This document shows, piece by piece, positions 275 through 16,543 of a stretch of 64,000 bases of DNA. The notes under the pieces are model-generated. The model ran no database searches, was not told the origin of the DNA, and worked only from the letters and a program-made list of their open reading frames with translations. Position numbers and translations under genes: made by a program. The DNA lies in the NCBI GenBank assembly GCA_021812365.1, contig JAKANQ010000001.1:32763-96762 (forward strand), read 5' to 3'. Source of the DNA: a bacterium (GTDB taxonomy: Bacteria; Patescibacteriota; Minisyncoccia; UBA6257; GWB1-50-10). Position 1 is the first letter of the stretch. Every line of letters begins with the position of its first letter.

Positions 275-958
275 TTATTTTGTATATACCGTTATCTTTG
301 CGGACATGCCATCCTTCAACTCCGGATAATCCGCCACATTAAAGCGCACCTTCACATCAAATTTTTTCACGGGTCTTTTATCGGAAATTGAGAACGTAAC
401 TCCCGTATCGTCCGATGTTTGACTCACGCTTTCCACAACCCCGACATATGTTTTATTTCCGAATGTATCGACGGTGAATGTGGCTTGCTGGCCCGGCTTA
501 ATCATTTCCAATCCCTTAGTCTCTTCAAGAGCTCCCACCACTCTCATATCTTCGGGGTGAACCATTGAAACGATTGGATTTCCGGGAGCGAAAAATGTTC
601 CAATGTTGTTTGAAGTACTTACCACGATACCGCTTTGTTTCGAAGCGACGATTTCGGTTCCCACCAATGCGACGGGAGTATTTGCGGCAATCACATCTCC
701 CTCCTTCACATAAAGCGCATTCAATGTTCCGGCAACATTTCCGGAAAGATTGATCATCGGGACATTTATTTCCGAATTTTCAATGAATACCGTTCCCGCG
801 TTCGCCTGCCAAAAAAGGAACCCACCCAACAGCAAAAAGACGGCAACCATACCTGCAATGCTTTGTATTACGGATTTGCTGAATATACCCCCCTTTTTCT
901 CGTTTTTTTCTTCCATATAATTGATTTTATTTGTGTGACACAATTTCAATAGCAGCAA
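275..958 (-). CDS. HlyD-family membrane-fusion-like protein (short; TM anchor plus lipoyl/beta-barrel region)
   Basis: 227 aa. N-terminal TM helix (IAGMVAVFLLLGGFLFW), then a VKEGDVIAANTPVALV lipoyl-like hairpin and beta-rich segments typical of periplasmic adaptor subunits. Sits between the EmrA-like ORF and the MFS gene. Confidence 0.5.
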   Translation of the reverse strand: MLLLKLCHTNKINYMEEKNEKKGGIFSKSVIQSIAGMVAVFLLLGGFLFWQANAGTVFIENSEINVPMINLSGNVAGTLNALYVKEGDVIAANTPVALVGTEIVASKQSGIVVSTSNNIGTFFAPGNPIVSMVHPEDMRVVGALEETKGLEMIKPGQQATFTVDTFGNKTYVGVVESVSQTSDDTGVTFSISDKRPVKKFDVKVRFNVADYPELKDGMSAKITVYTK

Positions 959-2087
959 TGTTCGGTATCGCTATCTGTCCCGCCGTTATGGACACATTTG
1001 TTATTGTTCCATCAATGGGCGCGACGATGATGGTGTTGTTATATGCACTTTGCGCAATCTGTAATGCTCCTTCCATACTTTGTACTTGGGCTTTCGCTAT
1101 TTCCAGATCTTCTGATCTCGCCGGAGCTTGTTTTAATGCCAGCGCCGCTTTTGCTTGTGCTAGCGAGAATTGAGCATTCTTCACCGCTTGAGCATACAAA
1201 TTGATGGAATCATATGTCGCATCAACCGCCGATTTTTGAGAAGCTGCGGACAACTGGTATGCGTTGAGGGTGGCGCGGCTGCTTTCGCGCGTGACCTGAG
1301 TGTAATTGGTCAAAAGCGAAATGAAATCAACAAAATATGCGCGAACAATCGCGGAATAATTTAAGGAGTCATCAACGACTTTATTCACGGTATTGTCAGA
1401 AATGGATGATACCTCGTCTTGCCAAGCGGCCAAATCGGAATTGATCATCTGTCGCTCGTTGTTCACTTTATTCACGAGATCGGGGTTTGTTTGAACCGTA
1501 TCTGAGATGAAGAATTGAGGACTCAGCGATTGAGGATTGTTGAATGAATTATTCGTACCTATGAGAACCGCTGTTTTTACATTGTTATACGCACTGGTGA
1601 GTTCGTTTTGAAGATTTTGCTTTGCATTGCTCAACGCGGCGGAAGCGGAATCGACAGATGCCTGAGAGACCGCGATATCCGGAGTAAACGCGCCGTTCAT
1701 CAATTTATTGTAATTTGTTTGAGCTACCAAATATGCTGCTTTCGCTTGATTGATCGCTCCAATCGCATTTTCCGCATCAAGACTTGCGAGCACTGTTCCT
1801 GCTTTCACGGTATCACCTATCTTCACTGATACATCTTTAATTCTTCCGCCCGTAGCGAACGCAAGTGTTAGGTCTTGTGAGGCCGACTGTGCGGTCGATG
1901 ATGACAATGCGCCTATCTCCGCGGTTCTCCTTGAGAGAGCGTTTTTGTGGCTTACCACGCTTGCTATGCCGACGGAAAGGGCGATTACACTTGCAATTCC
2001 TATCGCAAGTTTTGGCGTTGAAATTATTTTTTTAAGATGTTGTTTCATGTTTATTCTATTGATTGATATATTGAAAATGCTGGCCAT
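927..2087 (-). CDS. HlyD/EmrA-like periplasmic adaptor (membrane fusion protein) with long coiled-coil
   Basis: 386 aa. N-terminal TM anchor, lipoyl half-motifs (VKIGDTVKAGTVLASLD and IVAPIDGTITNV), and about 250 aa of Ala/Gln-rich coiled-coil. The start may instead be the internal Met at 2048. Overlaps the downstream ORF by 32 nt. Confidence 0.55.
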   Translation of the reverse strand: MASIFNISINRINMKQHLKKIISTPKLAIGIASVIALSVGIASVVSHKNALSRRTAEIGALSSSTAQSASQDLTLAFATGGRIKDVSVKIGDTVKAGTVLASLDAENAIGAINQAKAAYLVAQTNYNKLMNGAFTPDIAVSQASVDSASAALSNAKQNLQNELTSAYNNVKTAVLIGTNNSFNNPQSLSPQFFISDTVQTNPDLVNKVNNERQMINSDLAAWQDEVSSISDNTVNKVVDDSLNYSAIVRAYFVDFISLLTNYTQVTRESSRATLNAYQLSAASQKSAVDATYDSINLYAQAVKNAQFSLAQAKAALALKQAPARSEDLEIAKAQVQSMEGALQIAQSAYNNTIIVAPIDGTITNVSITAGQIAIPNIAAIEIVSHK

Positions 2088-2225
2088 CTAGAGCTAGAAC
2101 CGACCAGGTTCAAGCCCTGTAAAGCGGATTTGAACTAATTTTAACCTATTTCACGACGCATCTCGAGCGCTCCATATTTTCTAGAAAGTGACAAAAGTGA
2201 CACAAGAATGGGACTTTAGTGCGTC

Positions 2226-2648
2226 CTAGTATCTTCGTAATCCAGTTTTATCCAATATTACCCGAACAGTTAAATAGCAAGCGGGATAAAGGATTACGGT
2301 ACCTGTGATGGTAAGCCAATTACTGGCGAAAACATCCGATCCCCAAATTAAACCAATAACAAAAAGGATTCCAAAATAAAGATAGTTGTATAGCACGCTA
2401 CCCAACATTCCCCAACGACCCAATACGGCTCTAACCGCTGCGATAATAAGTATCACCGCGAGTACCACGATAATTGATAACCAATGTGCCGACAGAAACG
2501 ACAACAAGGCATTCCACAACATGCGATATGCCTGCTTCGTTCCCTCATCAATAGCATTAAAAAACGCATCAAGCGTTTTCTTTGTAAACTCGGTTCCTGT
2601 CGCTGTGCTAGTAGAGTTCATTTTTGAGATTAAAACACATGACCCCAA
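2226..2648 (-). CDS. small polytopic membrane protein (3 predicted TM helices), last gene of the TIR operon
   Basis: 140 aa. Soluble N-terminus of about 50 aa, then three hydrophobic helices. Overlaps the upstream TIR-like gene by 19 nt, indicating translational coupling. Confidence 0.5.
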   Translation of the reverse strand: MGSCVLISKMNSTSTATGTEFTKKTLDAFFNAIDEGTKQAYRMLWNALLSFLSAHWLSIIVVLAVILIIAAVRAVLGRWGMLGSVLYNYLYFGILFVIGLIWGSDVFASNWLTITGTVILYPACYLTVRVILDKTGLRRY

Positions 2649-3181
2649 CTTAAATAAGTATCCTTGGAATAATAAGATAAGCCGCTTTTGGGAAGTTTAT
2701 TGAAATCAAATTGTGAAACTGCATCTGCTATTGGCTCTTTTTTGAAAGGTACATGAATAACCATAGCGGTTTTATTATTAATACGTTCAGTGAGAGCCTT
2801 TGGCCAAAGAGAAGATAAGGCGACAGGATCCATAATTCTTTCATAACCCGTGTATGCCGCAATGATTGGCATTTTACAGTTATCTACAGCGTGAGCTATT
2901 TCAAATGGAATCCAGTCTGTGTCTAGACGAGTCGTCGGACCGATAATCAATAGAAGATGTTTTGAATTATTCATCCTTTCTCTGAGCGCACGCCTCAAAG
3001 TTTCTTTGGTGCTTGAATCTCTAACATCACGTTTTTCGTGACTGTTTATAAATTTAAAATCTCCATCTTCATCTCTCACTTTCCACATTCGGAGCGTATT
3101 GTAATACTTCATGTCCGAATCTGTTGGATCTGAAGTATTGTTAGCATGAAATGCTACATATGTGCCGTTTCTATAGTTCAT
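2630..3181 (-). CDS. TIR-like domain protein (DUF1863/ThsB-type)
   Basis: 183 aa. N-terminal TYVAFHANNTSD matches the TIR betaA-type F-x-S-[FY]-x-x-D pattern. A central hydrophobic strand HLLLIIGPTT is followed by DWIPFEIAHAV, a W-x-x-FE motif with a candidate catalytic Glu. Overall layout resembles Thoeris ThsB as I recall it. Confidence 0.55.
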   Translation of the reverse strand: MNYRNGTYVAFHANNTSDPTDSDMKYYNTLRMWKVRDEDGDFKFINSHEKRDVRDSSTKETLRRALRERMNNSKHLLLIIGPTTRLDTDWIPFEIAHAVDNCKMPIIAAYTGYERIMDPVALSSLWPKALTERINNKTAMVIHVPFKKEPIADAVSQFDFNKLPKSGLSYYSKDTYLSWGHVF

Positions 3182-3183
3182 AG

Positions 3184-3786
3184 TTATTTCTCCTTTTGTT
3201 TTTTGTGGATCATTATCAGATATAAAATAATTGAGATCGAGAGAAGAATAAAAATAATTACATTAAGAAACGAACTGAGCGACAATCCGCTAATACAAGC
3301 GGCTTTAATTTCCCCGTATATTTTCGTAGCACTTATAGCAAGCAAGAGTAATGGGAAAATTATCGTATAAAGTGTCCACATCCAATCAGAAAAGATTGGG
3401 TATCGATCAAGATATGATTTTCCCTCTCGCGTAATGATGTCCTCGCCAGACTCCTTGTTTAGAGACTCCTCGATTTTATGGACGTAGGAATATTGTCTTT
3501 CAACAAAAACGGCTACTTGAAAATAGCGGATTGTGAAGATAAGCAAAAGAAACCATGCAATATTCCCTATAATAGCTAGATCTAATTTAAGATTTAAGCC
3601 AAATTTAAAATTTAAAAAATCATTAACTACAACATCGGATGTAATTGGAGAAATTATTTGAAAGGCCAAAAAACCAAGAGCGAGGACGACAAAAATCATT
3701 AAGCGATCACGCCTTTTCACACTCTCATTAATAATTGCACAAGTGTCTTTATAGTGATCGTAAATTATTGATATTTTTTCAGACAT
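3184..3786 (-). CDS. polytopic membrane protein (4 predicted TM helices), no recognisable soluble domain
   Basis: 200 aa. TM helices near LMIFVVLALGFLAFQII, LAIIGNIAWFLLLIFTI, TLYTIIFPLLLLAISA and FLNVIIFILLSISIILYLIMI. Sits between two TIR-like genes, with 2 nt and 8 nt junctions. Confidence 0.5.
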   Translation of the reverse strand: MSEKISIIYDHYKDTCAIINESVKRRDRLMIFVVLALGFLAFQIISPITSDVVVNDFLNFKFGLNLKLDLAIIGNIAWFLLLIFTIRYFQVAVFVERQYSYVHKIEESLNKESGEDIITREGKSYLDRYPIFSDWMWTLYTIIFPLLLLAISATKIYGEIKAACISGLSLSSFLNVIIFILLSISIILYLIMIHKKQKEK

Positions 3787-4234
3787 ACCTACGAATAAAC
3801 TGGTTGGGATAAGGGGCTTCGTCGAGAGCCTTTAGTATGTTTGCTTCTGTAAACGAATATACCCAAGCGGCCCTTGATCCTAAAAGTTCTTCAGGAGATT
3901 CAAACGTTCTATCTAATTTAACTGCTGCGATTCGCTTACCAAGATCAATACTTTGCCGCACTTCGAAGTTTATCCAATTTTTATATCCAATGAGGCCACG
4001 ATTTCTGTGTGGGGAGTTTGCATGTTCACCAACAATCACGAGTGTATGAGTAGCATCTTTTATCTTGGATGTAAGCGCCGCCTTTATTCTTCCGACATTT
4101 GAGCTATTAATTTCTTCTGGAGTAGCATCGTCAAATACAAATTTGAACTTTGGATTTTCATTCCAAGCTTCGAGTAGGTATTTATAATGCTTGTCGTTGT
4201 CGTAATCAAAACTGACAAATACTGAAGGTTTCAT
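3779..4234 (-). CDS. TIR-like domain protein (DUF1863/MTH538-type), second copy
   Basis: 151 aa. SVFVSFDYDNDKHYKYLLEAW is a classic TIR-like N-terminus. THTLVIVGEHANS is followed by NWINFEVRQSI, the same W-x-x-FE motif seen in the 183-aa paralog. Confidence 0.55.
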   Translation of the reverse strand: MKPSVFVSFDYDNDKHYKYLLEAWNENPKFKFVFDDATPEEINSSNVGRIKAALTSKIKDATHTLVIVGEHANSPHRNRGLIGYKNWINFEVRQSIDLGKRIAAVKLDRTFESPEELLGSRAAWVYSFTEANILKALDEAPYPNQFIRRYV

Positions 4235-4245
4235 TTTGTGTTTGT

Positions 4246-4485
4246 TTAATTTTTCCTATCTTTCGGCGGATTCGGATCCTTGCCGTAGCTATCTTTATCA
4301 CTGATTTTGCCATCCTTGTTGTGAATGACATGCTCAACTCCTGCTTTTTTAGCTTCGCGAATAGATTTTTCTTCGGCAGTTTCTTTAGTGTGAGAAGAAG
4401 AAACAGGTTTTTGCTGACCCTCTTTCTTGGTTTCCCACATACCACGGTCGGAGTTATAAACCGTATGAATGTTCTTTTTTGACAT
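4246..4485 (-). CDS. DUF2188-family small protein
   Basis: 79 aa. HTVYNSDRGMWETKKEG ... ELVIHNKDGKISDKDSYGKDPNPPKD matches the DUF2188 signature (hVvP..GWavk..G ... IHg.DG.I.d..SYG.DP.PP.D). Confidence 0.55.
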   Translation of the reverse strand: MSKKNIHTVYNSDRGMWETKKEGQQKPVSSSHTKETAEEKSIREAKKAGVEHVIHNKDGKISDKDSYGKDPNPPKDRKN

Positions 4486-4487
4486 GG

Positions 4488-5147
4488 TTAACTTGATTTT
4501 GGTTTTTTAATTACGTCTACGACCTTTCCGCTGATCTGAAAATCATCTCCTCTGTGAACGAATATAGGCATGAATGTTTCGGTGGATTCAGACTCAAGCA
4601 CAATCTGATCGTGTTCTTTATCTTCCTTGTAGCGTTTAATGGTGCCCATGCCGTCGATAACCGCCACCACGATATCTCCATTTTTAGGATTCTTGTAGGT
4701 GCTATCAACCACGACAAAATCACCATCCTCAATGGTTGGACCATCGGGACGTACCTTCGCCAAATTCATAGACAGACCATCTGCAACGAGAACAAAGAGG
4801 TCCTGCTTCTTACGGGGTAGCATTTTAGCGGAAACCTTGAGGTATCCCTCTGTTCGACTTTCCGCGAATATGGTTGCTGGCCCGCAATTTGCAGCTCCCA
4901 CGATAGGAAGGGAGTAGAACAGGCTCTTAGCGGCTGATTTAAGGTTAAAGCCCCTGCTTACGGGCTTTATAACGCCCTTATCGAGGTTAACCTGCAATAA
5001 CCCAGCTTTTCCCAGCTGGATCAGGTGGTGTTTCACGATCTGGGGCTTGTTTTCCACCCCGATGAGTTTAGCGATTTGGCGATAGCTCAAAGACTCCAAA
5101 TTTTGATGTTTTGAGAGGTTTAATATTGCGGCCTGGATTTTATGCAT
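4488..5147 (-). CDS. LexA/cI-like S24-family transcriptional repressor (HTH plus autopeptidase)
   Basis: 219 aa. N-terminal HTH (LSYRQIAKLIGV). C-terminal S24 fold with the Ser in VADGLSMN and the Lys in GTIKRYK. An internal GPA cleavage-site candidate is present. First gene of the minus-strand operon; divergent from a plus-strand promoter. Confidence 0.65.
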   Translation of the reverse strand: MHKIQAAILNLSKHQNLESLSYRQIAKLIGVENKPQIVKHHLIQLGKAGLLQVNLDKGVIKPVSRGFNLKSAAKSLFYSLPIVGAANCGPATIFAESRTEGYLKVSAKMLPRKKQDLFVLVADGLSMNLAKVRPDGPTIEDGDFVVVDSTYKNPKNGDIVVAVIDGMGTIKRYKEDKEHDQIVLESESTETFMPIFVHRGDDFQISGKVVDVIKKPKSS

Positions 5148-5153
5148 GCCTTA

Positions 5154-5182
5154 ATATTAGCATACTTTTTGGCTGTTTGCAA
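5154..5182 (-). promoter_or_regulatory. candidate sigma70-type promoter (TTGCAA, 17 nt spacer, TAATAT) about 6 nt upstream of the repressor ATG; implies a leaderless mRNA
   Basis: On the minus strand: TTGCAAacagccaaaaagtatgcTAATATtaaggcATG. Confidence 0.35.
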
Positions 5183-5209
5183 GCTCGTCCGTAAATAAGT
5201 TTTACACGG

Positions 5210-5237
5210 TTGACACTATCTCGGGTGGTTATATAAT
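5210..5237 (+). promoter_or_regulatory. sigma70-like promoter (TTGACA, 16 nt spacer, TATAAT) for the small zinc-ribbon gene, divergent from the repressor
   Basis: TTGACActatctcgggtggttaTATAATggaactATG. A nearby inverted repeat GTAAAtaagtTTTAC (5191-5205) may be an operator. Confidence 0.5.
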
Positions 5238-5243
5238 GGAACT

Positions 5244-5528
5244 ATGTCCATGCAAAAGGTCGGTGAAAATCGGTTTCTGTATCGTTGCCCTAAATGTGAT
5301 ATGCCTATGCTGGAAAAGGTGGGGTCTAAACTTCTCCTTTTGCAACACTACAAGGGGCAGCGTGTTAAAACCGAGATAGAACGGGATTTGATAGCTCCCA
5401 CCAACAAGCTCACTATTCGGTGCGGCTCATGTAAAGAAGGAGCACAAACGTTTCTTCACTTCACAGAAATAATCAGAATGGGAGAATCCACTTCGGCGAA
5501 AGTAGTTGAGGTAGGTAGCGTGGTATAA
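5244..5528 (+). CDS. small zinc-ribbon protein (CxxC ... CxxC), cro/regulator-like position
   Basis: 94 aa. Cys pairs at YRCPKCDMP and IRCGSCKEG. Lies immediately downstream of a near-consensus promoter. Confidence 0.45.
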   Translation: MSMQKVGENRFLYRCPKCDMPMLEKVGSKLLLLQHYKGQRVKTEIERDLIAPTNKLTIRCGSCKEGAQTFLHFTEIIRMGESTSAKVVEVGSVV

Positions 5529-5561
5529 TAGGAGCGTAGGTTAACAATTTAACAGAGCATC

Positions 5562-5625
5562 GTCTGGAACGCCCAGACATTCATCTATACCAAATGGTAT
5601 GGGTGCGTGTCTGGGCGTTTTTTGT
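5562..5625 (+). terminator. rho-independent terminator with an alternative upstream hairpin (attenuator-like)
   Basis: acgcccagaca (5569-5579) can pair either with upstream gtctgg (5562-5567) or with downstream tgtctgggcgt (5608-5618), which is followed by TTTTTT. Lies in the leader of the ParB-MTase gene. Confidence 0.5.
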
Positions 5626-5683
5626 TTATCGAGTAAAGGTCGACGGTAAACATTCAAACGCCTCAACAAAAATAAACAAAAAC

Positions 5684-6976
5684 ATGAAACATCTAACTTG
5701 GCACAATGAAATAAGGAAAGTTAAGGACCTCATTCCCTGTGGTTCCAACCCACGCGTTATATCAGATAAAGAGCTTCGGGATCTTAAAAAAAGTATTAAG
5801 CGTTCAGGATATGCGGAGATTATCGCAATTGATGTTGATGGGGAAATTGTTGCAGGTAATCAGAGGCATCGCGCTCTTATGGAAATGGGTATGGGTGACA
5901 CAGAGGTAGATGTCCGGGCTCCGAGCCGTAAGCTCACAAAAGAAGAGTTCGATCGCTACCTTATAGCAAGCAACGCGCTTGGTGGCACTTGGGATTTTGA
6001 GAAGCTTAAATCGTTCAATCTCGATGAATTGATCGACATTGGATTCGATAAAAAAGAACTGGAGAATATTTGGACCGAAAATCTTGAGGTTGAAGATGAT
6101 GATTTTAACGAAACCGCTGAACTTAAAAAGATAAAGATTGCCAAAACCAAGCGCGGTGATTTAATCGCGCTTGGTCCTCATAAGCTTCTTTGCGGGGATT
6201 CTACCAAGCCTGAAACGCTCAAGCGGTTATTCGGGAAAGAACGCGCTTCTGTAATTTATAGCGACCCCGTTTATAATCTCCGTGGTGGTGTTGATTACAA
6301 CAAGGGCATCGGCGGCCGCGCAAATTATGGTGGCCATGTAAACGACACCCGCACCGACGATGAATACCGGGATTTTATTCGGAAAAGTCTTGAGTGCGCC
6401 CTTTCCGTGACTAAAGAAGATGCCCATGTCTTCTATTGGAACGACGAATCGAATATTTGGTTAATCCAAACCCTTTACCGTGAGCTAGGAATAGCGAACA
6501 AGCGCGTTTGTTTGTGGCTCAAGAACGGACAGAACCCGACTCCTGGCGTTGCATTCAATAAGTGCTATGAGCCATGCATTTACGGGGTTCGCGGAAAGCC
6601 ATATATCTCAAAGAACTTGCAGAACCTGAACGAGGTGATGAATAAGGAAATCACGACTGGCAACAGTCTCCTTGAAGAAACGCTTGATCACTTGGATGTG
6701 TGGATGGTAAGGCGTCTTTCTGGCAAAAGTTATGAACACGCCACGAGTAAACCAACCAAGCTTCACGAAAAAGCAATTCGGAGATGTACCTGTCCGGGTG
6801 AAATTATCTTGGATAGCTTTCTAGGCTCTGGCAGCACGTTAATCGCGGCCGAACAATTGAAGCGTCGCGTCTATGCCATCGAACTTGAGCCTATCTTCTG
6901 TGATCTTGCAATTAAACGGTATGAACGGCTCAGCGGGAAAAAGGCAAAAGTAATCCACCACTATGAAGAAGAATAA
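5684..6976 (+). CDS. ParB-like nuclease domain fused to a beta-class N4/N6 DNA methyltransferase (phage-type)
   Basis: N-terminal ParB/Srx-like domain (EIIAIDVDGEIVAGNQRHRA). MTase motif IV variant SDPVY and motif I LDSFLGSGST in IV-then-I order. The track ORF starts at 5594, but that extension crosses the terminator, so the Met at 5684 is the likely start. Confidence 0.6.
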   Translation: MKHLTWHNEIRKVKDLIPCGSNPRVISDKELRDLKKSIKRSGYAEIIAIDVDGEIVAGNQRHRALMEMGMGDTEVDVRAPSRKLTKEEFDRYLIASNALGGTWDFEKLKSFNLDELIDIGFDKKELENIWTENLEVEDDDFNETAELKKIKIAKTKRGDLIALGPHKLLCGDSTKPETLKRLFGKERASVIYSDPVYNLRGGVDYNKGIGGRANYGGHVNDTRTDDEYRDFIRKSLECALSVTKEDAHVFYWNDESNIWLIQTLYRELGIANKRVCLWLKNGQNPTPGVAFNKCYEPCIYGVRGKPYISKNLQNLNEVMNKEITTGNSLLEETLDHLDVWMVRRLSGKSYEHATSKPTKLHEKAIRRCTCPGEIILDSFLGSGSTLIAAEQLKRRVYAIELEPIFCDLAIKRYERLSGKKAKVIHHYEEE

Positions 6977-7364
6977 AAAGCAAAGTGAATTTTTGGAGCA
7001 ACTCAAGAAGATTCCTATTGTTTCCGTAGCTGCGGAGAAAACCGGCCTCTCGCGCAACAGTATCTATCGTTGGAAGCGGGATGATAAGGAATTTGAGAAG
7101 ACCATGGAAGATGCTCTCGCAGAGGGCGAAGCCCTTATTAACGATATGAGTGAGAGCCAACTACTCTCGTTCATCAAGGATAAGAGTTGGCAAGCGGTGT
7201 CATTTTGGTTGCGTCACAGAAACCCGAAGTTCCGCGAGCGCGTGGAAGTAACGGCGAAAATTGAAAATATTGAGTCGCTCACGCCAGAACAAGAAGATAT
7301 TGTTCGGAAAGCATTAGAGCTTGAATCGCAGGAAAAAGAATTACCAAAAGAGATACAAGTATGA
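6963..7364 (+). CDS. phage terminase small subunit-like HTH protein
   Basis: 133 aa. HTH (TGLSRNSIYRWKRDD). Overlaps the upstream ParB-MTase gene by 14 nt. Its stop overlaps the start of the large-subunit gene (ATGA). Confidence 0.5.
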   Translation: MKKNKKQSEFLEQLKKIPIVSVAAEKTGLSRNSIYRWKRDDKEFEKTMEDALAEGEALINDMSESQLLSFIKDKSWQAVSFWLRHRNPKFRERVEVTAKIENIESLTPEQEDIVRKALELESQEKELPKEIQV

Positions 7365-8800
7365 ACCAAGACAAAATCCCACAAGATGTTGTGGATGCCA
7401 TGGTGAAGGATAGGAAGATACGGATCACAATAATCAAAAAAAGCTTTTGGTACTTTTTCCACTTCTACCTTCCTCACTACATAAGATACAAAACCGCGCC
7501 GTTCCACCGCGAAATGTTTTCGATTGCGGAGAATGAATCTGTGAAAACGGTAGTTATCGAGGCGTTCAGGAATTCCGCAAAAACAACCATCATGACGCTC
7601 GCATATCCAATTTGGGCTATCATTGGCTGTCAGCAAAAGAAGTTCATCGTCATTCTCGCGCAGACTCAGCAACAGGCACGCCAAATCCTCTCAAACATAA
7701 AACGTGAGATGGAATCTAATATGTTATTGCGCGCAGACTTGGGGCCATTCGAAGAGCCAGACGATGAATGGCGTGCGGTATCTTTGGTGATTCCACGATA
7801 CGGAGCGCGTATTACGGTCGCCTCCATAGACCAATCCGTGCGTGGATTGCGGCACGGCCCCTATCGGCCCGATCTCATTATTTGCGACGACTTAGAAGAC
7901 TTGGATTCCGTGAGGAGCCGCGATATGCGCGACAAGCTCTACGAATGGCTTGTGGGCGATATTATCCCCTTAGGAGATGTGAATACCAGGTTGATTGTCG
8001 TAGGTACGCGGCTCCACGAAGATTCACTCATTATGCGTCTTCGTAAGCTGATTAGTGAGAAAAGAGTAAATGGAATTGCGCGTACCTATCCGCTCATAGA
8101 CGGGCAAGGAAATATTGCGTGGCCTGGGAAATATCCCAATGAGGAAACGATTGAAAAAGAAAAGCAACGTGTGGGCGATGAACGCGCATGGCGCAGAGAG
8201 TATTGTTTGGAAATCGTGGGCGACACCGATCAGGTAATAGACCAAACATGGATTCATTACTACGACAATCTTCCGATTAAGAAGGGTGCATACATCACGC
8301 TTACCGCAATCGACCTCGCTATTTCCGAGTCAAATCGCGCTGACTATACCGCCATGGTTACTGCAAATATATACATCATAGATGGCCAGATTTACGTCTA
8401 TATTCTTGAGCCAATCGTGAACGAACGGCTCACATATCCGGATATACTGGAGCGCGCACAAATCGTCTATTCCGCTTTCCACAAAAGCGGAGGGGTCATT
8501 ATCGTTGAGGATGTAGGTTTCCAAAAGTCTCTCGTGCAAGATCTTGAAGCTATGGGATACAACGCAGTCTCGTTTAAACCGGGCGGTGCAGATAAGCGTA
8601 TGCGTCTATCCCTTACGGCGGGAATGGTAAAATCTGGCCATGTGTTATTTCCGCGAAAGGGTGCGGAACTTCTCATTGATCAGATTGTTCATTTAGGGCA
8701 AGAGAAGCACGACGATTTGGCGGACGCCTTTTCCATGTTGGTAATAAAATCGGAAACATACCGACCATATACAGCGAGTGATTTTGTCGTTCTCGTTTAA
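7361..8800 (+). CDS. phage terminase large subunit
   Basis: 479 aa. Walker A-like FRNSAKTT and Walker B LIICDDLED. C-terminal RNaseH-like nuclease region with acidic residues (TAIDLA, HDDLADAF). Confidence 0.65.
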   Translation: MNQDKIPQDVVDAMVKDRKIRITIIKKSFWYFFHFYLPHYIRYKTAPFHREMFSIAENESVKTVVIEAFRNSAKTTIMTLAYPIWAIIGCQQKKFIVILAQTQQQARQILSNIKREMESNMLLRADLGPFEEPDDEWRAVSLVIPRYGARITVASIDQSVRGLRHGPYRPDLIICDDLEDLDSVRSRDMRDKLYEWLVGDIIPLGDVNTRLIVVGTRLHEDSLIMRLRKLISEKRVNGIARTYPLIDGQGNIAWPGKYPNEETIEKEKQRVGDERAWRREYCLEIVGDTDQVIDQTWIHYYDNLPIKKGAYITLTAIDLAISESNRADYTAMVTANIYIIDGQIYVYILEPIVNERLTYPDILERAQIVYSAFHKSGGVIIVEDVGFQKSLVQDLEAMGYNAVSFKPGGADKRMRLSLTAGMVKSGHVLFPRKGAELLIDQIVHLGQEKHDDLADAFSMLVIKSETYRPYTASDFVVLV

Positions 8801-9844: not shown

Positions 9845-11164
9845 ATGGATAAAGAACAAAGGACAGGACTTATCGGCAATCCAGCTGTAGTTCCTATAAT
9901 AAAGGTCAGATATTGCTTATATGCTAGAAAGTCGACCGAACAGGACGAGAAACAAGCCCTTTCGATAGACTCACAGATAAAAGAAATGCTAGCCATCGCT
10001 GAACGCGATGAATTGGAAATAGTCGATATTCGCAGAGAAGCTCATTCAGCTAAAGATTCGGGGCAGAGACTAGTGTTCAAGGAATTATTAGAGGATATAC
10101 GACGAGGGAGATATAACGGAATTCTTACCTGGGCACCCGATCGGTTAAGCAGAAACGCAGGAGATTTAGGAAGTGTGGTTGATCTAATGGATCAAAAATC
10201 GCTTATCGAAATTCGGACTTATGGTCAACAATTCAGAAATTCTCCAAATGAAAAGTTCTTACTAATGATTTTATGCAGTCAGGCAAAACTGGAGAACGAC
10301 AATAAAAGTATCAATGTAAAACGTGGATTAAAGACAAGAGTTGAAATGGGTTTATGGCCAGCCCCAGCTCCAACGGGATATTTAAAAGAAAAGCGGATGG
10401 ATAGAAAATGTGAAACTCTTATTGACCCAGCCAGAGCGCCAGTCATCAAACAGGTGTTTGAAAAAGTTGCTTATGAAAAATGGAGTGGTCGGAAAGTTTA
10501 TAACTGGCTCAAATTCGATCTTAACTTTAAGACGGCTACTGGGAACAAGAATCTCACATTAGGGAATGTGTATATGATTCTTCAAAATCATTTCTATTAT
10601 GGAACTTTTGAATATCCTAAAAATAGCGGCAATTGGTATAAAGGAAAACATGAGCCGATCATAACTAAGGAACTGTTTGATGCGGTTCAAAACCAGGTCA
10701 AAAGCCAATTCATACGATCCGAGAGTAAGGAATTTGCTTTTACTAAATTAATGACCTGCGGCCTATGTGGATCAGGCATAACGGCCGATGAGAAGTTCAA
10801 AAAGCAGAAAAATGGGAATGTTCACCGTCACGTTTACTACGGGTGTACGAAAGTACGAGATAGAGATTGTAAATGTGGGTATATCAACGAGGTTGACCTC
10901 CTAAAACAATTTGAGAAACTTATTGAAAAAATAGATATCGACGAAATCGGAATCAAGGAGAAAATCAAAACTGAGGTTGAGCGGTTTAAGAAATTTCAGC
11001 AAGTAGTTCTCGGATCTAAGAAAAAGATTGTAGTTGCCGATATAGACATAAGAAATTATGCGAAGTACATCCTTAGGGAAAGCAAGGATATAGAGAAAAG
11101 AGAACTTCTAGGATGCCTTAGAAGTAAGATTATTTTAAATAATAAGCAAATCACCATTTCTTAA
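9845..11164 (+). CDS. large serine recombinase (resolvase/invertase catalytic domain, recombinase domain, zinc ribbon)
   Basis: 439 aa. Catalytic YARKSTEQ with the Ser nucleophile, then a recombinase domain, then a C-terminal Cys cluster CGLCGS ... CKCGY. Confidence 0.7.
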   Translation: MDKEQRTGLIGNPAVVPIIKVRYCLYARKSTEQDEKQALSIDSQIKEMLAIAERDELEIVDIRREAHSAKDSGQRLVFKELLEDIRRGRYNGILTWAPDRLSRNAGDLGSVVDLMDQKSLIEIRTYGQQFRNSPNEKFLLMILCSQAKLENDNKSINVKRGLKTRVEMGLWPAPAPTGYLKEKRMDRKCETLIDPARAPVIKQVFEKVAYEKWSGRKVYNWLKFDLNFKTATGNKNLTLGNVYMILQNHFYYGTFEYPKNSGNWYKGKHEPIITKELFDAVQNQVKSQFIRSESKEFAFTKLMTCGLCGSGITADEKFKKQKNGNVHRHVYYGCTKVRDRDCKCGYINEVDLLKQFEKLIEKIDIDEIGIKEKIKTEVERFKKFQQVVLGSKKKIVVADIDIRNYAKYILRESKDIEKRELLGCLRSKIILNNKQITIS

Positions 11165-11243
11165 TGAACTACTCTCTTGCGGTATCAAAAAAATCATTGA
11201 ATTTAAGGGGTCTACTGAGCTTTCCCGGGGACGAATTGAATAG

Positions 11244-11249
11244 TATAAT
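11244..11249 (+). promoter_or_regulatory. TATAAT -10 element 8 nt upstream of the MTase ATG (leaderless-type start)
   Basis: agTATAATcaaacaaaATG. No convincing -35. Confidence 0.3.
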
Positions 11250-11257
11250 CAAACAAA

Positions 11258-14200
11258 ATGTCGGACACATTACTTAAAGTAGTTCCAAAACAGCGGAAAT
11301 ACTATCAGGATAAAGCTAATAGCCTGAGGCTACTTGCGGCAAAAGAATTGAGAGATGCCTTTTTGGCCTCCTATGATGAGGATATCTCTCGAAAAACTGT
11401 TTCCGAGTCTTGTTTGGCTGAGTATATTGATACCTTTCCCGATCAAGACTCAGTAAAAACTTTTGCCTTTAATCTTTTAATAAACAATAAAGCTATAGAC
11501 GACTTACTGAAGGGATATGATCCGATAGAAATATCATATGTTGGCTCTTATATAGGAGAGGCAACCTACAGATCCTTTATCAGTCCAACTGATATTTCTC
11601 GAGTAATGGATTTCTTGGCACCATCAAAGGCTATTGGGTATTTTTTCACACCACCGGAGGTAGCATTCTTAATGGCCGATAAAATAATATCTTCTACTGA
11701 CAAAAGTATTGATATCCTAGATCCGAGTGCTGGATACGGTTCGCTATTAGTCGCGTCCTTAATAGTAGCAAAGAATAAAGGGGCAAAATTTAGTTCTGTA
11801 ACCGCAATTGAAGTTGATTCATTTACCTCAAAGAATTTAAAAAAGATTCTTGAAAGAGTTGTCGAGCTATTAGAATTTGATACAAAGCTAAATATTATCA
11901 ATGAAAATGCCATAGGATATTTAGCCAATAGTTTAAACGGTTTATTCGGTCGCCCTGCAAGATTTCAAAAAATCATAATGAATCCACCCTATGGGAGGGT
12001 GAAGTTTTTGAAAAACTTTTTAACAAACAAAGAAACTAGAACCTCTAGCGCTTTATTATCTCACGAAGAACAAGGGATAAAAATAAAAACAAAAGTAGAA
12101 AAGCTAACAAGAGAATTAGATATCATTTCACAAAAGCTCGGTTTCGATTCCAACGTAAGAGAGTACTCGAAATTATTTGTTGCATTAAGCCTCTCAAACT
12201 TAGCTCCCGACGGCCGGATGAGCGTGATTACCCCAAGTACTTGGCTTGGTGATGTTGAGTCGTATGACTTAAGGAAATTAATCATTAACAACTCATACCT
12301 AGAGCAAATTTTACTTTTCCCTGAAGACAGCGGCTTATTCGAAACCGTGAATCAACACACGGCAGTCAGTATCTTGTCTAAACAAGAAAAGGAAATGTTC
12401 GAGATTGTATCCGATTACAATTTGAATGTAAAATTTAGCAGGTCAAACAAGGTTTACTACGCCGATATTAAAAAAAATAATCCACAGGGATTAAAAATCC
12501 CGAAGCATGGCTCGGAGCATGATGAAATCATTTCCAAAATTCAACAACATAAACCGATCCGGCTAATTGAAAACTTAAAGAACCTTAGGGGAGAAATAGA
12601 TCTCTCCTTAAACAAGGATCTAGTATCCAACAAAGACACTGGCCGTCGATTAATCAGAGGCGATCACGTGGAAAGGTACATACTGCATCCGACGACAAAA
12701 TCTAAACGAGATGGATTCATTGAAGAAAGTAGGCTTGGCGAGAAGTTTCGATCACTTCCTAAATTTAAAGATAGTTTAAATTTCAGAATTGTTGGACGCC
12801 AAGTTTCTTACTTAGATAAAAAGAGGCGCTTAGATTTTTGCCTTATTGATCCTGATAGTTTTGTGAGTAATTCTTGCAACTACCTTTACTTTAAGTCTGA
12901 CGACGGCCAAAAAAAACCGAGCAGAAAGTTACTATCTTTATTGGGGATATTAAATAGCTCTGTTCTTGAATGGTATTTCAGGCTTTACAATAGCAACAAC
13001 CATGTCGCTAACTACGAGATAGCAAATTTTCCAGTCTGCTTAGATAGTGAATTTATTCCGCTAATAGCGAAATCTACGGAATTTCTTATCGGGGCATATA
13101 AAGAAGAATCACGGGATGAATCTGTTTCTGGCATAGAAGATTTCCACGATGCCTTGGTTGGCGTGGCGTATGATCTTACGCCAATAATGATCGGTACTAT
13201 TATGGAGTCAATTGACCCCAAAAGAAAAGGTAGGGTTGTAAATTTTGCGGAACACATATGTGAAGGTAATCTACCTCTCGATTTTATGAAGAGCGATCAT
13301 TGGTTTAATCATTATGTCTCAACGCTGTCTGATTTAGACCAAGAGATAATTAAACATGTTCCCCAAGGAGGAAATTGGCAAGATATTCCCGAGGAAGTTC
13401 CTTCTCAAAGGCTACGGCAGATACGTGAAATGTCGAAAGAGCGCGGTGTTGTGCGAACTACCTATTATGGAAGACTAAGACCGGATCAACCATCATATAC
13501 CATTGCTACGTACTATAATCGTCCCGGTAATGGAACAAACATTCATCCATGGGAAGACAGGACGATTTCTTCGCGTGAAGCGGCAAGACTCCAATCTTTT
13601 CCCGATAGTTATATTTTCTTTGGATCTGAAGGCGGTATTAGAACTCAGATAGGAAATGCCGTCCCTCCGCTACTTGCTTATTCATTGGGAAAGCATATCG
13701 GAAGCCGCTATGGCTTTGGCACCTGCGTTGACGCCTTTGCCGGTGCCGGTGGTCTAAGTTGTGGATTAGAGCTTGCTGGCTGGAAAGTGATTGCGGCTAA
13801 CGACAATGATAAACACGCCTCAATAACTTACCGGGCGAATAGGCCCACGGAAAAGACGCCGACTAGTGATGACAAAAAGACTTTCTTTGTAGAGGGAGAT
13901 ATTAACAATAAGAAAATTTGGGAAGAACTTTTATCAGGAATCAAAAAGAAGCTCGGCAATAAAGAATTAGATCTGCTAGTAGGTGGCCCACCGTGCCAAG
14001 GGTTTTCCCACGCTGGATTCAGAAGAGAGGATGATATACGCAACGACCTAGCCTCTATATATTTGAAGCTAGCAATTAAGCTAAGTCCTAAGACCTTTAT
14101 TCTTGAAAATGTAGAGGGACTTCTCACATACAATTCCGGACAGGTAGTAAAGGATATCATTGAGGCTTTGACGGATATCGGCTATCACGTTGAAGCTCCA

Positions 14201-14521
14201 TGGGTACTTAACGCAGAGCAATTTGGCGTACCTCAAATGCGAAGACGAGTATTGATTGTTGCGAATAGAAAAGAAATTGTGCCAAATATGCCAAACTTAT
14301 TTCGCAAATGTGCTGGTCGACGTTCTGGAAAGGTTATTGAGCAACTACACTTAGCACCTCCCGTGACTGCGGGAGAGGCTCTTATAGATCTACCACCGCT
14401 AAAGAAAAGAAGATTTCTAAAGGGAATTAATGATATTAACAAATTGTATTCCCAATGGTTAAAAGGGCTAATTAGCGCTGAGAGATTCCTAGAATCGCGA
14501 TCTAAGATAAGGGAATCGTAG
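11258..14521 (+). CDS. fused DNA methyltransferase: N-terminal gamma-class N6-adenine MTase (Eco57I/TaqI-like) plus C-terminal circularly permuted C5-cytosine MTase
   Basis: 1087 aa. N-terminal motif I ILDPSAGYGSLL and motif IV IIMNPPYG. C-terminal region carries motif IX/X (REAARLQSFPD, GNAVPP) before motif I (FAGAGGLSCG), motif IV (GGPPCQGFS), motif VI (ENVEGLL) and motif VIII (QFGVPQMRRRVLIV). Confidence 0.7.
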   Translation: MSDTLLKVVPKQRKYYQDKANSLRLLAAKELRDAFLASYDEDISRKTVSESCLAEYIDTFPDQDSVKTFAFNLLINNKAIDDLLKGYDPIEISYVGSYIGEATYRSFISPTDISRVMDFLAPSKAIGYFFTPPEVAFLMADKIISSTDKSIDILDPSAGYGSLLVASLIVAKNKGAKFSSVTAIEVDSFTSKNLKKILERVVELLEFDTKLNIINENAIGYLANSLNGLFGRPARFQKIIMNPPYGRVKFLKNFLTNKETRTSSALLSHEEQGIKIKTKVEKLTRELDIISQKLGFDSNVREYSKLFVALSLSNLAPDGRMSVITPSTWLGDVESYDLRKLIINNSYLEQILLFPEDSGLFETVNQHTAVSILSKQEKEMFEIVSDYNLNVKFSRSNKVYYADIKKNNPQGLKIPKHGSEHDEIISKIQQHKPIRLIENLKNLRGEIDLSLNKDLVSNKDTGRRLIRGDHVERYILHPTTKSKRDGFIEESRLGEKFRSLPKFKDSLNFRIVGRQVSYLDKKRRLDFCLIDPDSFVSNSCNYLYFKSDDGQKKPSRKLLSLLGILNSSVLEWYFRLYNSNNHVANYEIANFPVCLDSEFIPLIAKSTEFLIGAYKEESRDESVSGIEDFHDALVGVAYDLTPIMIGTIMESIDPKRKGRVVNFAEHICEGNLPLDFMKSDHWFNHYVSTLSDLDQEIIKHVPQGGNWQDIPEEVPSQRLRQIREMSKERGVVRTTYYGRLRPDQPSYTIATYYNRPGNGTNIHPWEDRTISSREAARLQSFPDSYIFFGSEGGIRTQIGNAVPPLLAYSLGKHIGSRYGFGTCVDAFAGAGGLSCGLELAGWKVIAANDNDKHASITYRANRPTEKTPTSDDKKTFFVEGDINNKKIWEELLSGIKKKLGNKELDLLVGGPPCQGFSHAGFRREDDIRNDLASIYLKLAIKLSPKTFILENVEGLLTYNSGQVVKDIIEALTDIGYHVEAPWVLNAEQFGVPQMRRRVLIVANRKEIVPNMPNLFRKCAGRRSGKVIEQLHLAPPVTAGEALIDLPPLKKRRFLKGINDINKLYSQWLKGLISAERFLESRSKIRES

Positions 14522-16180: not shown

Positions 16181-16285
16181 CTTTCTTGAATACGGCACTC
16201 AGCCGGTATGCTATGGACTGTATGGAGTGCTCTCGCTCTTCGGCTTGATCCACGCTTCTCGAGCGGGATAACCTATCACGAGTTG

Positions 16286-16338
16286 GCTGGGGGACTAGGA
16301 ATCGGACCTAGATTCACGGCTTCAAAGGCCGCTGTCCT
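16286..16338 (-). repeat. 53 bp exact direct repeat of the 3' part of tRNA-Gln (tRNA positions about 20 to 3' end), 100 bp from the gene
   Basis: gctgggggactaggaatcggacctagattcacggcttcaaaggccgctgtcct is identical at 16286-16338 and 16386-16438. Confidence 0.8.
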
Positions 16339-16386
16339 GTCGCTCGCGCAGTGAGGAAATAAATACATGAACATTTCTATGCATTG

Positions 16387-16457
16387 CTGGGGGACTAGGA
16401 ATCGGACCTAGATTCACGGCTTCAAAGGCCGCTGTCCTACCATTAGACGATCCCCCA
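16387..16457 (-). tRNA. tRNA-Gln (anticodon UUG); CCA not encoded
   Basis: Minus strand TGGGGGATCGTCTAATGGTAGGACAGCGGCCTTTGAAGCCGTGAATCTAGGTCCGATTCCTAGTCCCCCAG. Acceptor TGGGGGA/TCCCCCA, 3 bp D-stem, anticodon stem GCGGC/GCCGT, loop CUUUGAA, T-stem CTAGG/CCTAG. The T-loop is noncanonical (UCCGAUU). Confidence 0.65.
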
Positions 16458-16523
16458 GCAATACACACAAAAACATGTGCATGTATTATATTTCCGAACG
16501 AAACGTAGTGACAAGCGTAGCGC

Positions 16524-16543
16524 TACCATTAGACGATCCCCCA
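16524..16543 (-). repeat. 20 bp exact copy of the tRNA-Gln 5' end (positions 1-20), about 80 bp upstream of the gene
   Basis: taccattagacgatccccca occurs at 16438-16457 (inside the tRNA) and again at 16524-16543. The breakpoint is the same D-loop position where the 3' repeat begins. Confidence 0.7.

What the first reader, a model, noticed from the sequence alone, without database searches (positions are those of the whole stretch)
2630..4234. Duplicated TIR/TM cassette suggests two sensor-effector pairs, or a sensor plus a signal-amplifier
The 151-aa and 183-aa proteins share the same N-terminal F/Y-[VA]-[SF]-[FH]-x-x-x-D block, the central hydrophobic strand and the WxxFE motif. They are diverged paralogs. 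Each is paired with a different membrane protein (200 aa with 4 TM; 140 aa with 3 TM). Thoeris loci often carry several ThsB copies that recognise different phages. Here each copy seems to have its own membrane partner, which suggests modular TIR-TM units rather than one shared effector.
Basis: inference. Interest (0 to 1): 0.65.

Follow-up and report, generated by a model that had tools for sequence, protein, structure and literature searches.

The report
Hybrid Thoeris cassette with membrane effector
A six-gene operon at the edge of a mobile element carries a Thoeris-like anti-phage signalling system: two unrelated kinds of TIR sensor protein flank one four-helix membrane protein, while the second membrane protein is not a TIR partner but a small gene that trails many unrelated defence systems in Patescibacteria.

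Summary
The four ORFs exist as described. Both soluble proteins are ThsB-type TIR proteins and both membrane proteins are real, but this is not a duplicated cassette.

- **TIR151 + TM200:** a conserved two-gene unit. A TIR151-like gene lies directly upstream in 61 of 66 TM200 loci, and the pair often occurs alone. It matches the untested "4TM" putative Thoeris type in Table S1 of a 2025 preprint.
- **TIR183:** belongs to a different clade, the ThsB that normally sits directly downstream of the Macro-TM effector of type II Thoeris. Five of five independently sampled relatives show that context. Here it holds the same position behind TM200.
- **TM140:** unrelated to TM200. In 23 independent loci it trails restriction-modification, CBASS, Ppl-like and type II Thoeris systems. 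Only one of these has a TIR gene, and that TIR already has a Macro effector.

Best reading: one Thoeris-like system with two sensors and one 4TM effector, plus a hitch-hiking membrane gene. The operon starts with a LexA-like repressor and DUF2188 and ends at a conserved non-coding site. This is a new variant of a known kind, of moderate interest. All function is inferred.

The parts
4488..5147 (-). First gene of the operon: an S24 LexA/CI-like autocleaving repressor (219 aa).
   Evidence: Peptidase_S24 9.5e-22. The stop lies 2 nt before the DUF2188 start. The same gene heads the cassette in L001, L005, L032, L036, L125 and many metagenome loci.
4246..4485 (-). DUF2188 small protein (79 aa) between the repressor and the first TIR gene.
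   Evidence: PF09954 8.7e-14. PADLOC candidate PDC-S16 3.9e-23. In the TM200 loci surveyed it is seen next to the LexA-like gene only. It is listed as a putative TIR-associated effector in preprint 10.64898/2025.12.03.692087. It is linked to damage-responsive regulators of defence operons in 10.1101/2022.04.27.489752.
3779..4234 (-). TIR151: a ThsB-type TIR protein of the '4TM-associated' clade, and the presumed signal-producing sensor.
   Evidence: PF08937 6.7e-11. The motifs VFVSFDY and NWINFE, with the Glu, are at least 90% conserved in 75 family members. It is 41-63% identical to the TIRs of cluster 2727267812 labelled '4TM' in the preprint's Table S1. It overlaps the TM200 start by 8 nt.
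3184..3786 (-). TM200: a four-helix membrane protein (200 aa) and the presumed effector.
   Evidence: Four hydrophobic segments. AF2 model with pLDDT 83.9, all helical. No Pfam or PADLOC family. Family of 860 representative clusters, nearly all about 200 aa. A TIR151-like gene lies directly upstream in 61 of 66 loci. Invariant polar residues sit on the predicted cytoplasmic parts: DHYK, RRDR, RYFQ, ERQY.Y.H, TREGKSYL..YP.
2630..3181 (-). TIR183: a ThsB of the type II Thoeris family (the 'downstream ThsB'), and the presumed second sensor.
   Evidence: PF08937 7.1e-16. PADLOC ThsB PDLC00421 1.3e-62. PDB relatives 3hyn, 8v6t and 9uv0. 26% identical over its full length to the type II ThsB of B. 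amyloliquefaciens Y2. Relatives at 60-70% identity lie directly downstream of ThsA_Macro. It starts 2 nt after the TM200 stop.
2226..2621 (-). TM140: a three-helix membrane protein (131 aa from the ATG at 2621). It is the last gene of the operon and is not specific to TIR genes.
   Evidence: Family of 56 proteins with the motif GRWGMLGSVLYNYLYFGILF. Three hydrophobic segments. It trails unrelated defence-like genes in 23 loci.
2088..2210 (-). Conserved non-coding element that ends the cassette. It has a tandem GTGTCACTTTTGTCACTTT (2185-2203), then a partly conserved stretch of about 110 nt with two CTCGAG-type direct repeats.
   Evidence: Unique in the window, 0.02 expected by chance. The pattern occurs once, on the operon strand, in 24 fetched loci, with or without TM140. 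Alignment A4. No RNA structure and no Rfam, tRNA or tmRNA match. The genes after it are unrelated between loci.

Best explanation
This is one Thoeris-like abortive-infection system carried as cargo in the repressor operon of a mobile element. It is not two sensor-effector pairs.

Proposed mechanism:
- TIR151 and TIR183 are two different ThsB sensors. On phage infection each would use NAD+ to make an ADP-ribose-derived signal.
- TM200, encoded between them, is the single effector. Its conserved, positively charged cytoplasmic face (the N-terminal helix plus the loop between helices 2 and 3) would bind the signal. The protein would then assemble in the membrane and collapse it, stopping phage replication.
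- TIR151 + TM200 is the ancestral unit, equal to the preprint's '4TM' type.
- TIR183 is the 'downstream ThsB' of a two-ThsB type II Thoeris that has kept its position while the effector in front of it was exchanged (Macro-TM versus TM200).
- TM140 is an independent small membrane gene that rides at the 3' end of many defence operons in Patescibacteria.
- The LexA-like repressor and DUF2188 at the head of the operon probably tie expression to DNA damage or element induction.

Shown here: gene families, gene order, conservation of the pairings, and conservation of the catalytic-type Glu. Inferred: signal production, signal binding by TM200, membrane killing, regulation, and that both TIRs feed TM200.
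For: 1. Both soluble proteins are ThsB TIRs with the conserved W..(F)E Glu.
2. TIR-A/TM200 pairing: 61 of 66 loci, the commonest spacing being an 8-nt overlap. One exception has a TIR-NACHT-TPR protein upstream instead (L111), so TM200 homologues stay next to TIR domains.
3. The preprint's Table S1 lists about 34 TIRs of one cluster with a '4TM' effector. TIR151 is 41-63% identical to them. One of them is 90% identical to the TIR upstream of the TM200 homologue in L117-L119.
4. TIR-effector-TIR is a recurrent layout. L125, L126 and L127 read ThsB - ThsA_Macro - ThsB. The preprint's gene numbers n and n+2 around 4TM effectors suggest the same layout.
5. TIR183-type proteins sampled on their own lie directly after the effector gene in 5 of 5 loci. 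In the window that gene is TM200, with a 2-nt gap.
6. L061 has TM200 plus a TIR183-like gene and no TIR151-like gene.
7. TIR183-like genes behind TM200 are intact and 66-92% identical across loci. They group with the Macro-linked ones as one family.
8. TM140 trails complete systems that have their own effectors: type II Thoeris in L032, CBASS cyclase plus a SLATT-like 2TM protein in L023, and RM systems.
9. No Macro ThsA occurs anywhere in the window.
10. Known Thoeris types V and VII use small multi-TM effectors (preprint).
Against: - No experiment exists for this '4TM' type. Table S2 of the preprint lists only 'SLOG and 4TM' systems, which did not defend.
- TM200 has no recognisable ligand-binding domain, and fold searches returned only generic helical bundles.
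- TIR183's closest relatives work with a Macro effector. If TIR151 makes a different molecule, TM200 may not respond to TIR183.
- Only 8 of 50 TM200 loci carry the second TIR, so it is dispensable.
- TM140 is coupled to TIR183 by an 8-nt gap here and in the close relative L036. A local functional link cannot be excluded.
- The tree is a simple NJ tree without support values.
Confidence: 0.55

Rival explanations
1. One reading: two independent sensor-effector pairs, TIR151 with TM200 and TIR183 with TM140. Each TIR signals to its own membrane protein.
For: Gene order alternates TIR-TM-TIR-TM. The TIR183 stop and the TM140 start are 8 nt apart. The close relative L036 (TM200 85% identical) has the same four genes.
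Against: - TM140 surveyed on its own: 1 of 23 loci has a TIR, and that TIR is paired with ThsA_Macro.
- TM140 follows RM, CBASS, Ppl-like and helicase genes.
- Of 6 loci with TM200 plus a TIR183-like gene and enough sequence, 5 lack TM140.
- TIR183 relatives sampled on their own never have TM140.
- The two TM proteins are unrelated.
Confidence: 0.08
2. TIR183 is a leftover of a module swap. A type II Thoeris (ThsB-up, Macro-TM, ThsB-down) lost its first two genes to a TIR151 + TM200 pair. TIR183 is now an orphan with no effector, or works alone as an NAD+-consuming enzyme or as a decoy.
For: Its relatives at 60-70% identity are all Macro-linked. L125 and L126 have the same LexA-headed layout with Macro-TM in place of TM200. 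No Macro protein occurs in the window. The second TIR is absent from 42 of 50 TM200 loci.
Against: - The TM200 + TIR183-like arrangement recurs in at least 9 loci whose TM200 proteins are 43-85% identical to the window's.
- In those loci the TIR gene is intact and 66-92% identical, which indicates purifying selection in this context.
- L061 has TM200 + TIR183-like with no other TIR.
Confidence: 0.2
3. Reversed logic: TM200 is a membrane sensor (for example of phage DNA entry or envelope stress). It activates the TIR proteins as NAD+-depleting effectors, with no diffusible signal.
For: Many bacterial TIR domains act as NADase effectors; the preprint's introduction says so. TM200 lacks any known nucleotide-binding domain.
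Against: - Both TIRs belong to PF08937/ThsB clades whose studied members make signals (type II, VII and X clusters in the preprint).
- TIR183's relatives pair with a Macro effector that binds a TIR product.
- The most conserved residues of TM200 lie on the predicted cytoplasmic face, not outside.
Confidence: 0.1

Closest known systems
'4TM' putative Thoeris type (TIR cluster 2727267812) in Table S1 of Yirmiya et al. 2025, bioRxiv 10.64898/2025.12.03.692087
   Same: TIR151 is 41-63% identical to the listed TIRs. One listed TIR is 90% identical to the TIR next to a TM200 homologue (L117-L119). The layout is the same: a TIR of about 140-150 aa followed by a four-helix protein of about 200 aa. Gene numbers n and n+2 suggest TIR-4TM-TIR there too.
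   Different: In the preprint's TIR-4TM-TIR cases both TIRs come from the same cluster. Here the second TIR belongs to the type II clade. Other differences are the Patescibacteria host, the LexA/DUF2188 head and the TM140 tail. The type is predicted only; I found no test of it in Table S2.
Type II Thoeris (ThsB + Macro-TM effector, called ThsA or ThsC; signal His-ADPR)
   Same: TIR183 is a full-length member of this ThsB family. It holds the family's usual position directly after the effector gene. Related loci (L032, L125, L126) carry the same LexA (with or without DUF2188) head.
   Different: No Macro domain occurs in TM200 or anywhere in the window. The effector slot is filled by an unrelated four-helix protein.
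Thoeris types V (DUF2270, 3 TM) and VII (SLATT): validated systems with small membrane effectors
   Same: A short TIR protein next to a small multi-helix membrane protein with no enzymatic domain. The preprint proposes oligomeric pores with charged pockets.
   Different: TM200 and TM140 match neither DUF2270 nor any SLATT family, alone or across 45 and 35 family members. The TIR151 clade differs from the type V TIR clusters.
Thoeris loci with several ThsB genes and one effector (own knowledge of Doron 2018 and Ofir 2021; type III and the island examples in the preprint)
   Same: Diverged ThsB copies sit around one effector and are thought to widen phage recognition.
   Different: Here the two ThsBs come from clades that elsewhere serve different effector classes.
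Repressor-linked defence cargo: CapH/CapP-regulated operons with DUF2188 (10.1101/2022.04.27.489752); lambda cI-rexAB (own knowledge)
   Same: A damage-responsive repressor gene next to defence genes. DUF2188 appears in such operons. A membrane protein is co-transcribed with the repressor.
   Different: The regulator here is an S24 LexA/CI-type protein in the same operon, not a divergent HTH plus metallopeptidase pair. No regulation was tested.

Membership tests
Thoeris (general) | A TIR-domain ThsB protein with the catalytic-type glutamate | tested here: met
   PF08937 above the cut-off for both proteins. E91 in NWINFE is at least 90% conserved in 75 relatives. E94 aligns with the Glu of 3hyn.
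Thoeris (general) | A dedicated effector gene conserved next to the TIR gene | tested here: met
   TM200: 61 of 66 loci have the TIR directly upstream. This is not met for TM140 (1 of 23 loci).
Thoeris (general) | The TIR makes an ADPR-derived signal on infection that activates the effector, giving phage defence | not testable with these tools
   Needs phage assays, lysate transfer and LC-MS.
Type II Thoeris | ThsB of the type II family | tested here: met
   TIR183: E 4e-15 over the full length against B. amyloliquefaciens Y2 ThsB. Relatives at 60-70% identity lie next to ThsA_Macro.
Type II Thoeris | An effector with transmembrane helices plus a Macro domain (PF20016) | tested here: not met
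   No Macro hit in TM200 or TM140. tblastn with four ThsA_Macro proteins finds nothing in the window.
'4TM' putative Thoeris type (preprint) | A TIR of cluster 2727267812 | tested here: met
   TIR151 is 41-63% identical to 10 listed members, E down to 1e-61.
'4TM' putative Thoeris type (preprint) | An adjacent four-helix membrane protein without another domain | tested here: met
   The link to the preprint's effector is indirect, through L117-L119.
Type V / type VII Thoeris | An effector belonging to DUF2270 (PF10028) or to a SLATT family | tested here: not met
   No such hit for TM200, TM140 or any of 45 and 35 family members. The profile-profile comparison that could find a remote SLATT link was not done.
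Prophage or integrative element (context) | Recombinase, repressor, terminase, and att repeats at both ends | tested here: inconclusive
   S24 repressor, ParB-methylase, TerL, serine recombinase and an RM system are present. No capsid or tail genes were seen. There is a conserved end element at 2088-2210. Only a weak 13/14-nt direct repeat lies near tRNA-Gln.

The most novel reading that the evidence does not exclude
TM140 and the conserved TGTCAC-TGTCAC end element together mark a defence-cassette platform specific to Patescibacteria. In this reading, a small three-helix membrane protein is translationally coupled to the last gene of otherwise unrelated systems (RM, CBASS, type II Thoeris, Ppl-like, and the 4TM Thoeris here). 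It acts as a shared accessory to all of them, for example a common membrane executioner, an exclusion protein or a regulator, rather than hitch-hiking. A second, separate novel reading is that TM200 responds to the signal of a type II-family ThsB. That would mean two unrelated effector folds (Macro-TM and 4TM) read the same TIR product.
Probability: 0.2. Interest if true: 0.7.

Novelty: new variant of a known kind. Interest (0 to 1): 0.45.

Why it matters
Thoeris systems are currently being sorted by effector type. This locus is a natural hybrid: a ThsB of the type II family sits behind a 4TM effector where its relatives have a Macro-TM effector.

- If that TIR still works there, two explanations are open. 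Either two unrelated effectors read the same TIR-made molecule, or ThsB sensors can be exchanged between effector classes. That question can be tested directly with lysate-transfer assays.
- The locus extends TIR signalling to ultra-small Patescibacteria and to the repressor operon of their mobile elements.
- It also turns up two uncharacterised features that recur around defence genes in that phylum: the TM140 protein family and a conserved non-coding end element.

If the locus is ordinary, it is one more member of a predicted Thoeris type plus a passenger gene.

Tried and rejected
- **Duplication:** rejected. TM200 and TM140 show no similarity, and the TIRs belong to different clades.
- **TM200 or TM140 as known effector families:** no Pfam or PADLOC hit for the window proteins or their families.
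- **A hidden ThsA elsewhere in the window:** no Macro ThsA by tblastn. The family-count scans of 55 window ORFs were swamped by methylase models and are not a full test for SIR2 or SLOG.
- **Phage database:** blastn of 2100-8800 found no match.
- **TM140 as a conserved host gene beside an insertion hotspot:** rejected. The genes on both sides vary.
- **The conserved downstream element as an RNA gene:** no Rfam, ARAGORN or RNAalifold support.
- **Terminators inside the cassette:** only weak consensus matches within coding sequence.
- **Host organism:** the window's proteins are on an NCBI contig of 116,616 bp without a name. Close relatives are labelled Candidatus Taylorbacteria, so the host is inferred, not shown.
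Full report
**What is in the sequence**

Six genes lie head to tail on the minus strand between 5147 and 2226:
- an S24 LexA/CI-like repressor, 5147..4488 (Peptidase_S24 9.5e-22);
- a DUF2188 protein, 4485..4246;
- TIR151, 4234..3779;
- TM200, 3786..3184;
- TIR183, 3181..2630;
- TM140, which homologues show starts at the ATG at 2621 and ends at 2226 (131 aa).

The junctions are 2, 11, -8, 2 and 8 nt. No convincing terminator lies between the genes, so this is one operon. G+C falls to 0.35-0.40 across the four cargo genes, against 0.43-0.47 on either side.

Transcribed the other way are a ParB-methylase, a small HTH protein and a large terminase. Further on come a serine recombinase and an Alw26I-type restriction-modification system. 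The context is therefore a cryptic prophage or integrative island.

**Checking the observation**

- Both soluble proteins pass Pfam's threshold for ThsB_TIR (6.7e-11 and 7.1e-16) and hit PADLOC ThsB models. TIR183 hits at 1.3e-62 over its full length.
- They align to each other at 25% identity (E 9e-7), with WINFE on WIPFE.
- TM200 has four hydrophobic segments and TM140 has three. The AlphaFold models are all-helical, with pLDDT 83.9 and 80.8.

The description is correct, with three corrections. The N-terminal motif is only approximate. TM140 lies outside the given range. The two membrane proteins are unrelated to each other.

**TIR151 and TM200 are a real unit**

TM200 belongs to a family of stand-alone proteins of about 200 aa, with 149 word-indexed hits and 860 representative clusters at E <= 0.001. 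It matches no Pfam or PADLOC model.

I collected 80 metagenome loci, 6 viral contigs and several genome loci using TM200 alone.
- Of 66 non-redundant loci with enough upstream DNA, 61 have a TIR151-like gene directly upstream. The commonest spacing is the same 8-nt overlap.
- One exception has a TIR-NACHT-TPR protein upstream instead (L111).
- Only 8 of 50 loci have a second TIR downstream, so the pair commonly stands alone (for example L003 and L005/L006).
- The TIR151 family keeps VFVSFDY and NWINFE, including the Glu, in at least 90% of 75 members.
- TM200 keeps a set of invariant His, Arg, Lys, Glu and Tyr residues in its N-terminal helix and in the loop between helices 2 and 3. By the positive-inside rule these parts face the cytoplasm (my inference).

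**This pair is already catalogued**

The preprint by Yirmiya et al. (10.64898/2025.12.03.692087) defines Thoeris types I-XI and 29 putative effector classes. Its Table S1 lists about 34 TIRs of cluster 2727267812 with an effector labelled '4TM'.
- TIR151 is 41-63% identical to ten of these TIRs.
- One of them (IMG 2621076032) is 90% identical to the TIR that precedes the TM200 homologue in L117-L119.

The preprint's '4TM' effector is therefore the TM200 family. I found no test of this class in Table S2. Only 'SLOG and 4TM' systems are listed there, and they did not defend. Several entries carry gene numbers n and n+2 on one scaffold, which suggests TIR-4TM-TIR layouts elsewhere.

**TIR183 belongs to a different clade and pairs with the gene in front of it**

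- TIR183 matches PDB entries 3hyn, 8v6t and 9uv0. It aligns over its full length with the type II ThsB of B. amyloliquefaciens Y2.
- Its family is large and well conserved (more than 1100 hits, many at 60-90% identity).
- I sampled five relatives at 60-70% identity without regard to context. Every one lies directly after a ThsA_Macro gene (L122/L123, L124, L125, L126, L127).
- Three of these loci read ThsB(167-170 aa) - ThsA_Macro - ThsB(181-186 aa). L125 is headed by the same S24 repressor gene. In L126 the DUF2188 gene heads the Thoeris genes and the repressor gene lies divergently just upstream.
- None of the five has TM200 or TM140.

The window has the same architecture with TM200 in the effector slot. 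In a simple NJ tree the TM200-linked and Macro-linked 'downstream ThsBs' form one family. The upstream ThsBs and TIR151 fall outside it. L061 carries TM200 plus a TIR183-like gene with no TIR151-like gene. No Macro ThsA is present in the window.

**TM140 is not a TIR partner**

TM140 belongs to a small family (56 hits) with a strongly conserved GRWGMLGSVLYNYLYFGILF core. In the genome collection it occurs in 24 loci. Almost all named records are Patescibacteria: Parcubacteria, Saccharibacteria, Paceibacterota, Moraniibacteriota, Portnoybacteria and others.

It nearly always starts within about 12 nt of, or overlaps, the gene in front of it. That upstream gene differs from locus to locus, with at least 18 unrelated families. 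Examples:
- a NotI restriction-modification system followed by a 358-aa protein;
- a type I RM system followed by a YgjP-like protein;
- an HNH protein;
- a Ppl-like PHP-ATPase;
- helicase-like and PifA/QatA-like giant proteins;
- a CBASS cyclase with a SLATT-like two-helix effector (L023);
- the LexA-like gene itself (L034);
- in L032, a complete type II Thoeris (LexA - DUF2188 - ThsB - ThsA_Macro).

L032 is the only one of 23 loci with a TIR gene. Conversely, of six TM200 loci with a downstream TIR183-like gene and enough sequence, only L036 (a close relative of the window) has TM140. The genes after TM140 also vary.

**How it most likely works**

The evidence fits one Thoeris-like system with two sensors and one effector. 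TIR151 and TIR183 would each respond to infection by making an ADP-ribose-derived molecule. TM200 would bind it on its cytoplasmic face, assemble in the membrane and kill or arrest the cell. This follows what is proposed for the small membrane effectors of types V and VII. All of these steps are inferred from family membership and gene order.

The main uncertainty is whether TM200 responds to TIR183. Relatives of TIR183 serve a Macro effector, and the second TIR is optional. I therefore give the orphan-TIR rival 0.2 and the best explanation 0.55.

The repressor and DUF2188 at the head suggest expression linked to DNA damage or element induction. DUF2188 has been noted in defence operons under damage-responsive regulators, is a PADLOC candidate, and is listed as a putative TIR-associated effector in the preprint. 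In my TM200 loci it appears only together with the LexA-like gene.

**An unexpected non-coding feature**

Directly after TM140 lies GTGTCACTTTTGTCACTTT (2185-2203). It is unique in the window.
- The pattern TGTCNCWTTTGTCNC occurs once, always on the operon strand, in 24 of the fetched loci. It is found after TM140, after TM140 plus one more gene, or at the end of cassettes that lack TM140 (L001, L005, L037, L125). In two loci it lies just upstream of TM140.
- About 110 nt of partly conserved sequence follows it. This stretch holds two locus-specific direct repeats that change together.
- It has no predicted RNA structure, no Rfam match and no tRNA or tmRNA call.
- The genes beyond it are unrelated between loci.

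It looks like the conserved end of a family of mobile elements with a cargo slot for defence genes. A weak 13/14-nt direct copy of its core lies at 16252-16265, beside a tRNA-Gln that has partial duplicates. That hints at an island of about 14 kb, but I could not establish this.

**Verdict**

TIR151-TM200 is a modular unit, already listed as a putative '4TM' Thoeris type. TIR183 is a type II-family ThsB placed behind a non-Macro effector. TM140 is a promiscuous tail gene, not a second effector.

I rate the locus a new variant of a known kind, with moderate interest (0.45). The interest lies in two points: the natural effector swap with a retained ThsB, and the unexplained TM140 and end-element platform in Patescibacteria.

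Noticed in passing
window 2088-2210 (minus strand); also L001:6339, L005:5619, L013:5099, L023:4440, L036:5085, L125:6216 and others: A conserved non-coding element ends the cassette. It has a tandem TGTCNC-WTT-TGTCNC, then about 110 nt with two locus-specific direct repeats around a CTCGAG-like core. It occurs once per locus on the operon strand in 24 loci, with or without TM140. There is no RNA structure or Rfam match, and the downstream genes vary. It may be an att or recombinase-binding end of a mobile-element family.
   Followed up: partly
window 2226-2621 (minus strand); L007, L009, L011-L034: The TM140 family (131 aa, 3 TM, almost only in Patescibacteria) is translationally coupled to the last gene of many unrelated defence-like operons: RM types I and II, CBASS, type II Thoeris, Ppl-like, and HNH. 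Its own function is unknown.
   Followed up: partly
window 16286-16543: tRNA-Gln (16386-16457, minus strand) has an exact 53-nt copy of its 3' part at 16286-16338 and a 21-nt copy of its 5' end at 16523-16543. These are traces of integration events at this tRNA. A 13/14-nt match to the left-end element core lies at 16252-16265.
   Followed up: partly
window 9845-16082: A large serine recombinase (9845-11164) is followed by a 1087-aa fused N6-adenine plus C5-cytosine methylase (11258-14521) and a convergent Alw26I-type endonuclease (14502-16082). This is a type IIS RM system in a low-GC stretch.
   Followed up: no
window 5244-8800: Divergent from the repressor operon are a perfect TTGACA-16-TATAAT promoter-like site (5210-5237), a 94-aa zinc-ribbon-like ORF, a ParB-N6/N4 methylase, a small HTH protein and a large terminase. 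No capsid, portal or tail genes follow. The same module flanks the cassette in L005/L006. It may be a cryptic prophage or a satellite-like element.
   Followed up: no
L111:546-4163: A distant TM200 homologue (229 aa) is preceded by a 949-aa TIR-NACHT-TPR (STAND) protein instead of a short ThsB. It may be a STAND-type sensor feeding the same membrane effector.
   Followed up: no
L126:4569-5054 and L127:4571-5056: A NUDIX hydrolase gene directly follows the downstream ThsB of two-ThsB type II Thoeris loci. It could degrade or shape an ADPR-derived signal.
   Followed up: no
window 927-2087 (minus strand): The listed start of the HlyD-like ORF (ATGGCCAGC at 2087) lies inside the conserved end element (GGCCAGC). 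The real start is probably the next Met (MKQHLKK...). Two HlyD-like ORFs (386 and 227 aa) follow each other, and MacB/FtsX/ABC genes occur elsewhere in the window.
   Followed up: no
P0348: A 2229-aa protein matches the TM200 profile in 42 short stretches (profile positions 85-112). It looks like a repetitive sequence rather than a true relative.
   Followed up: no
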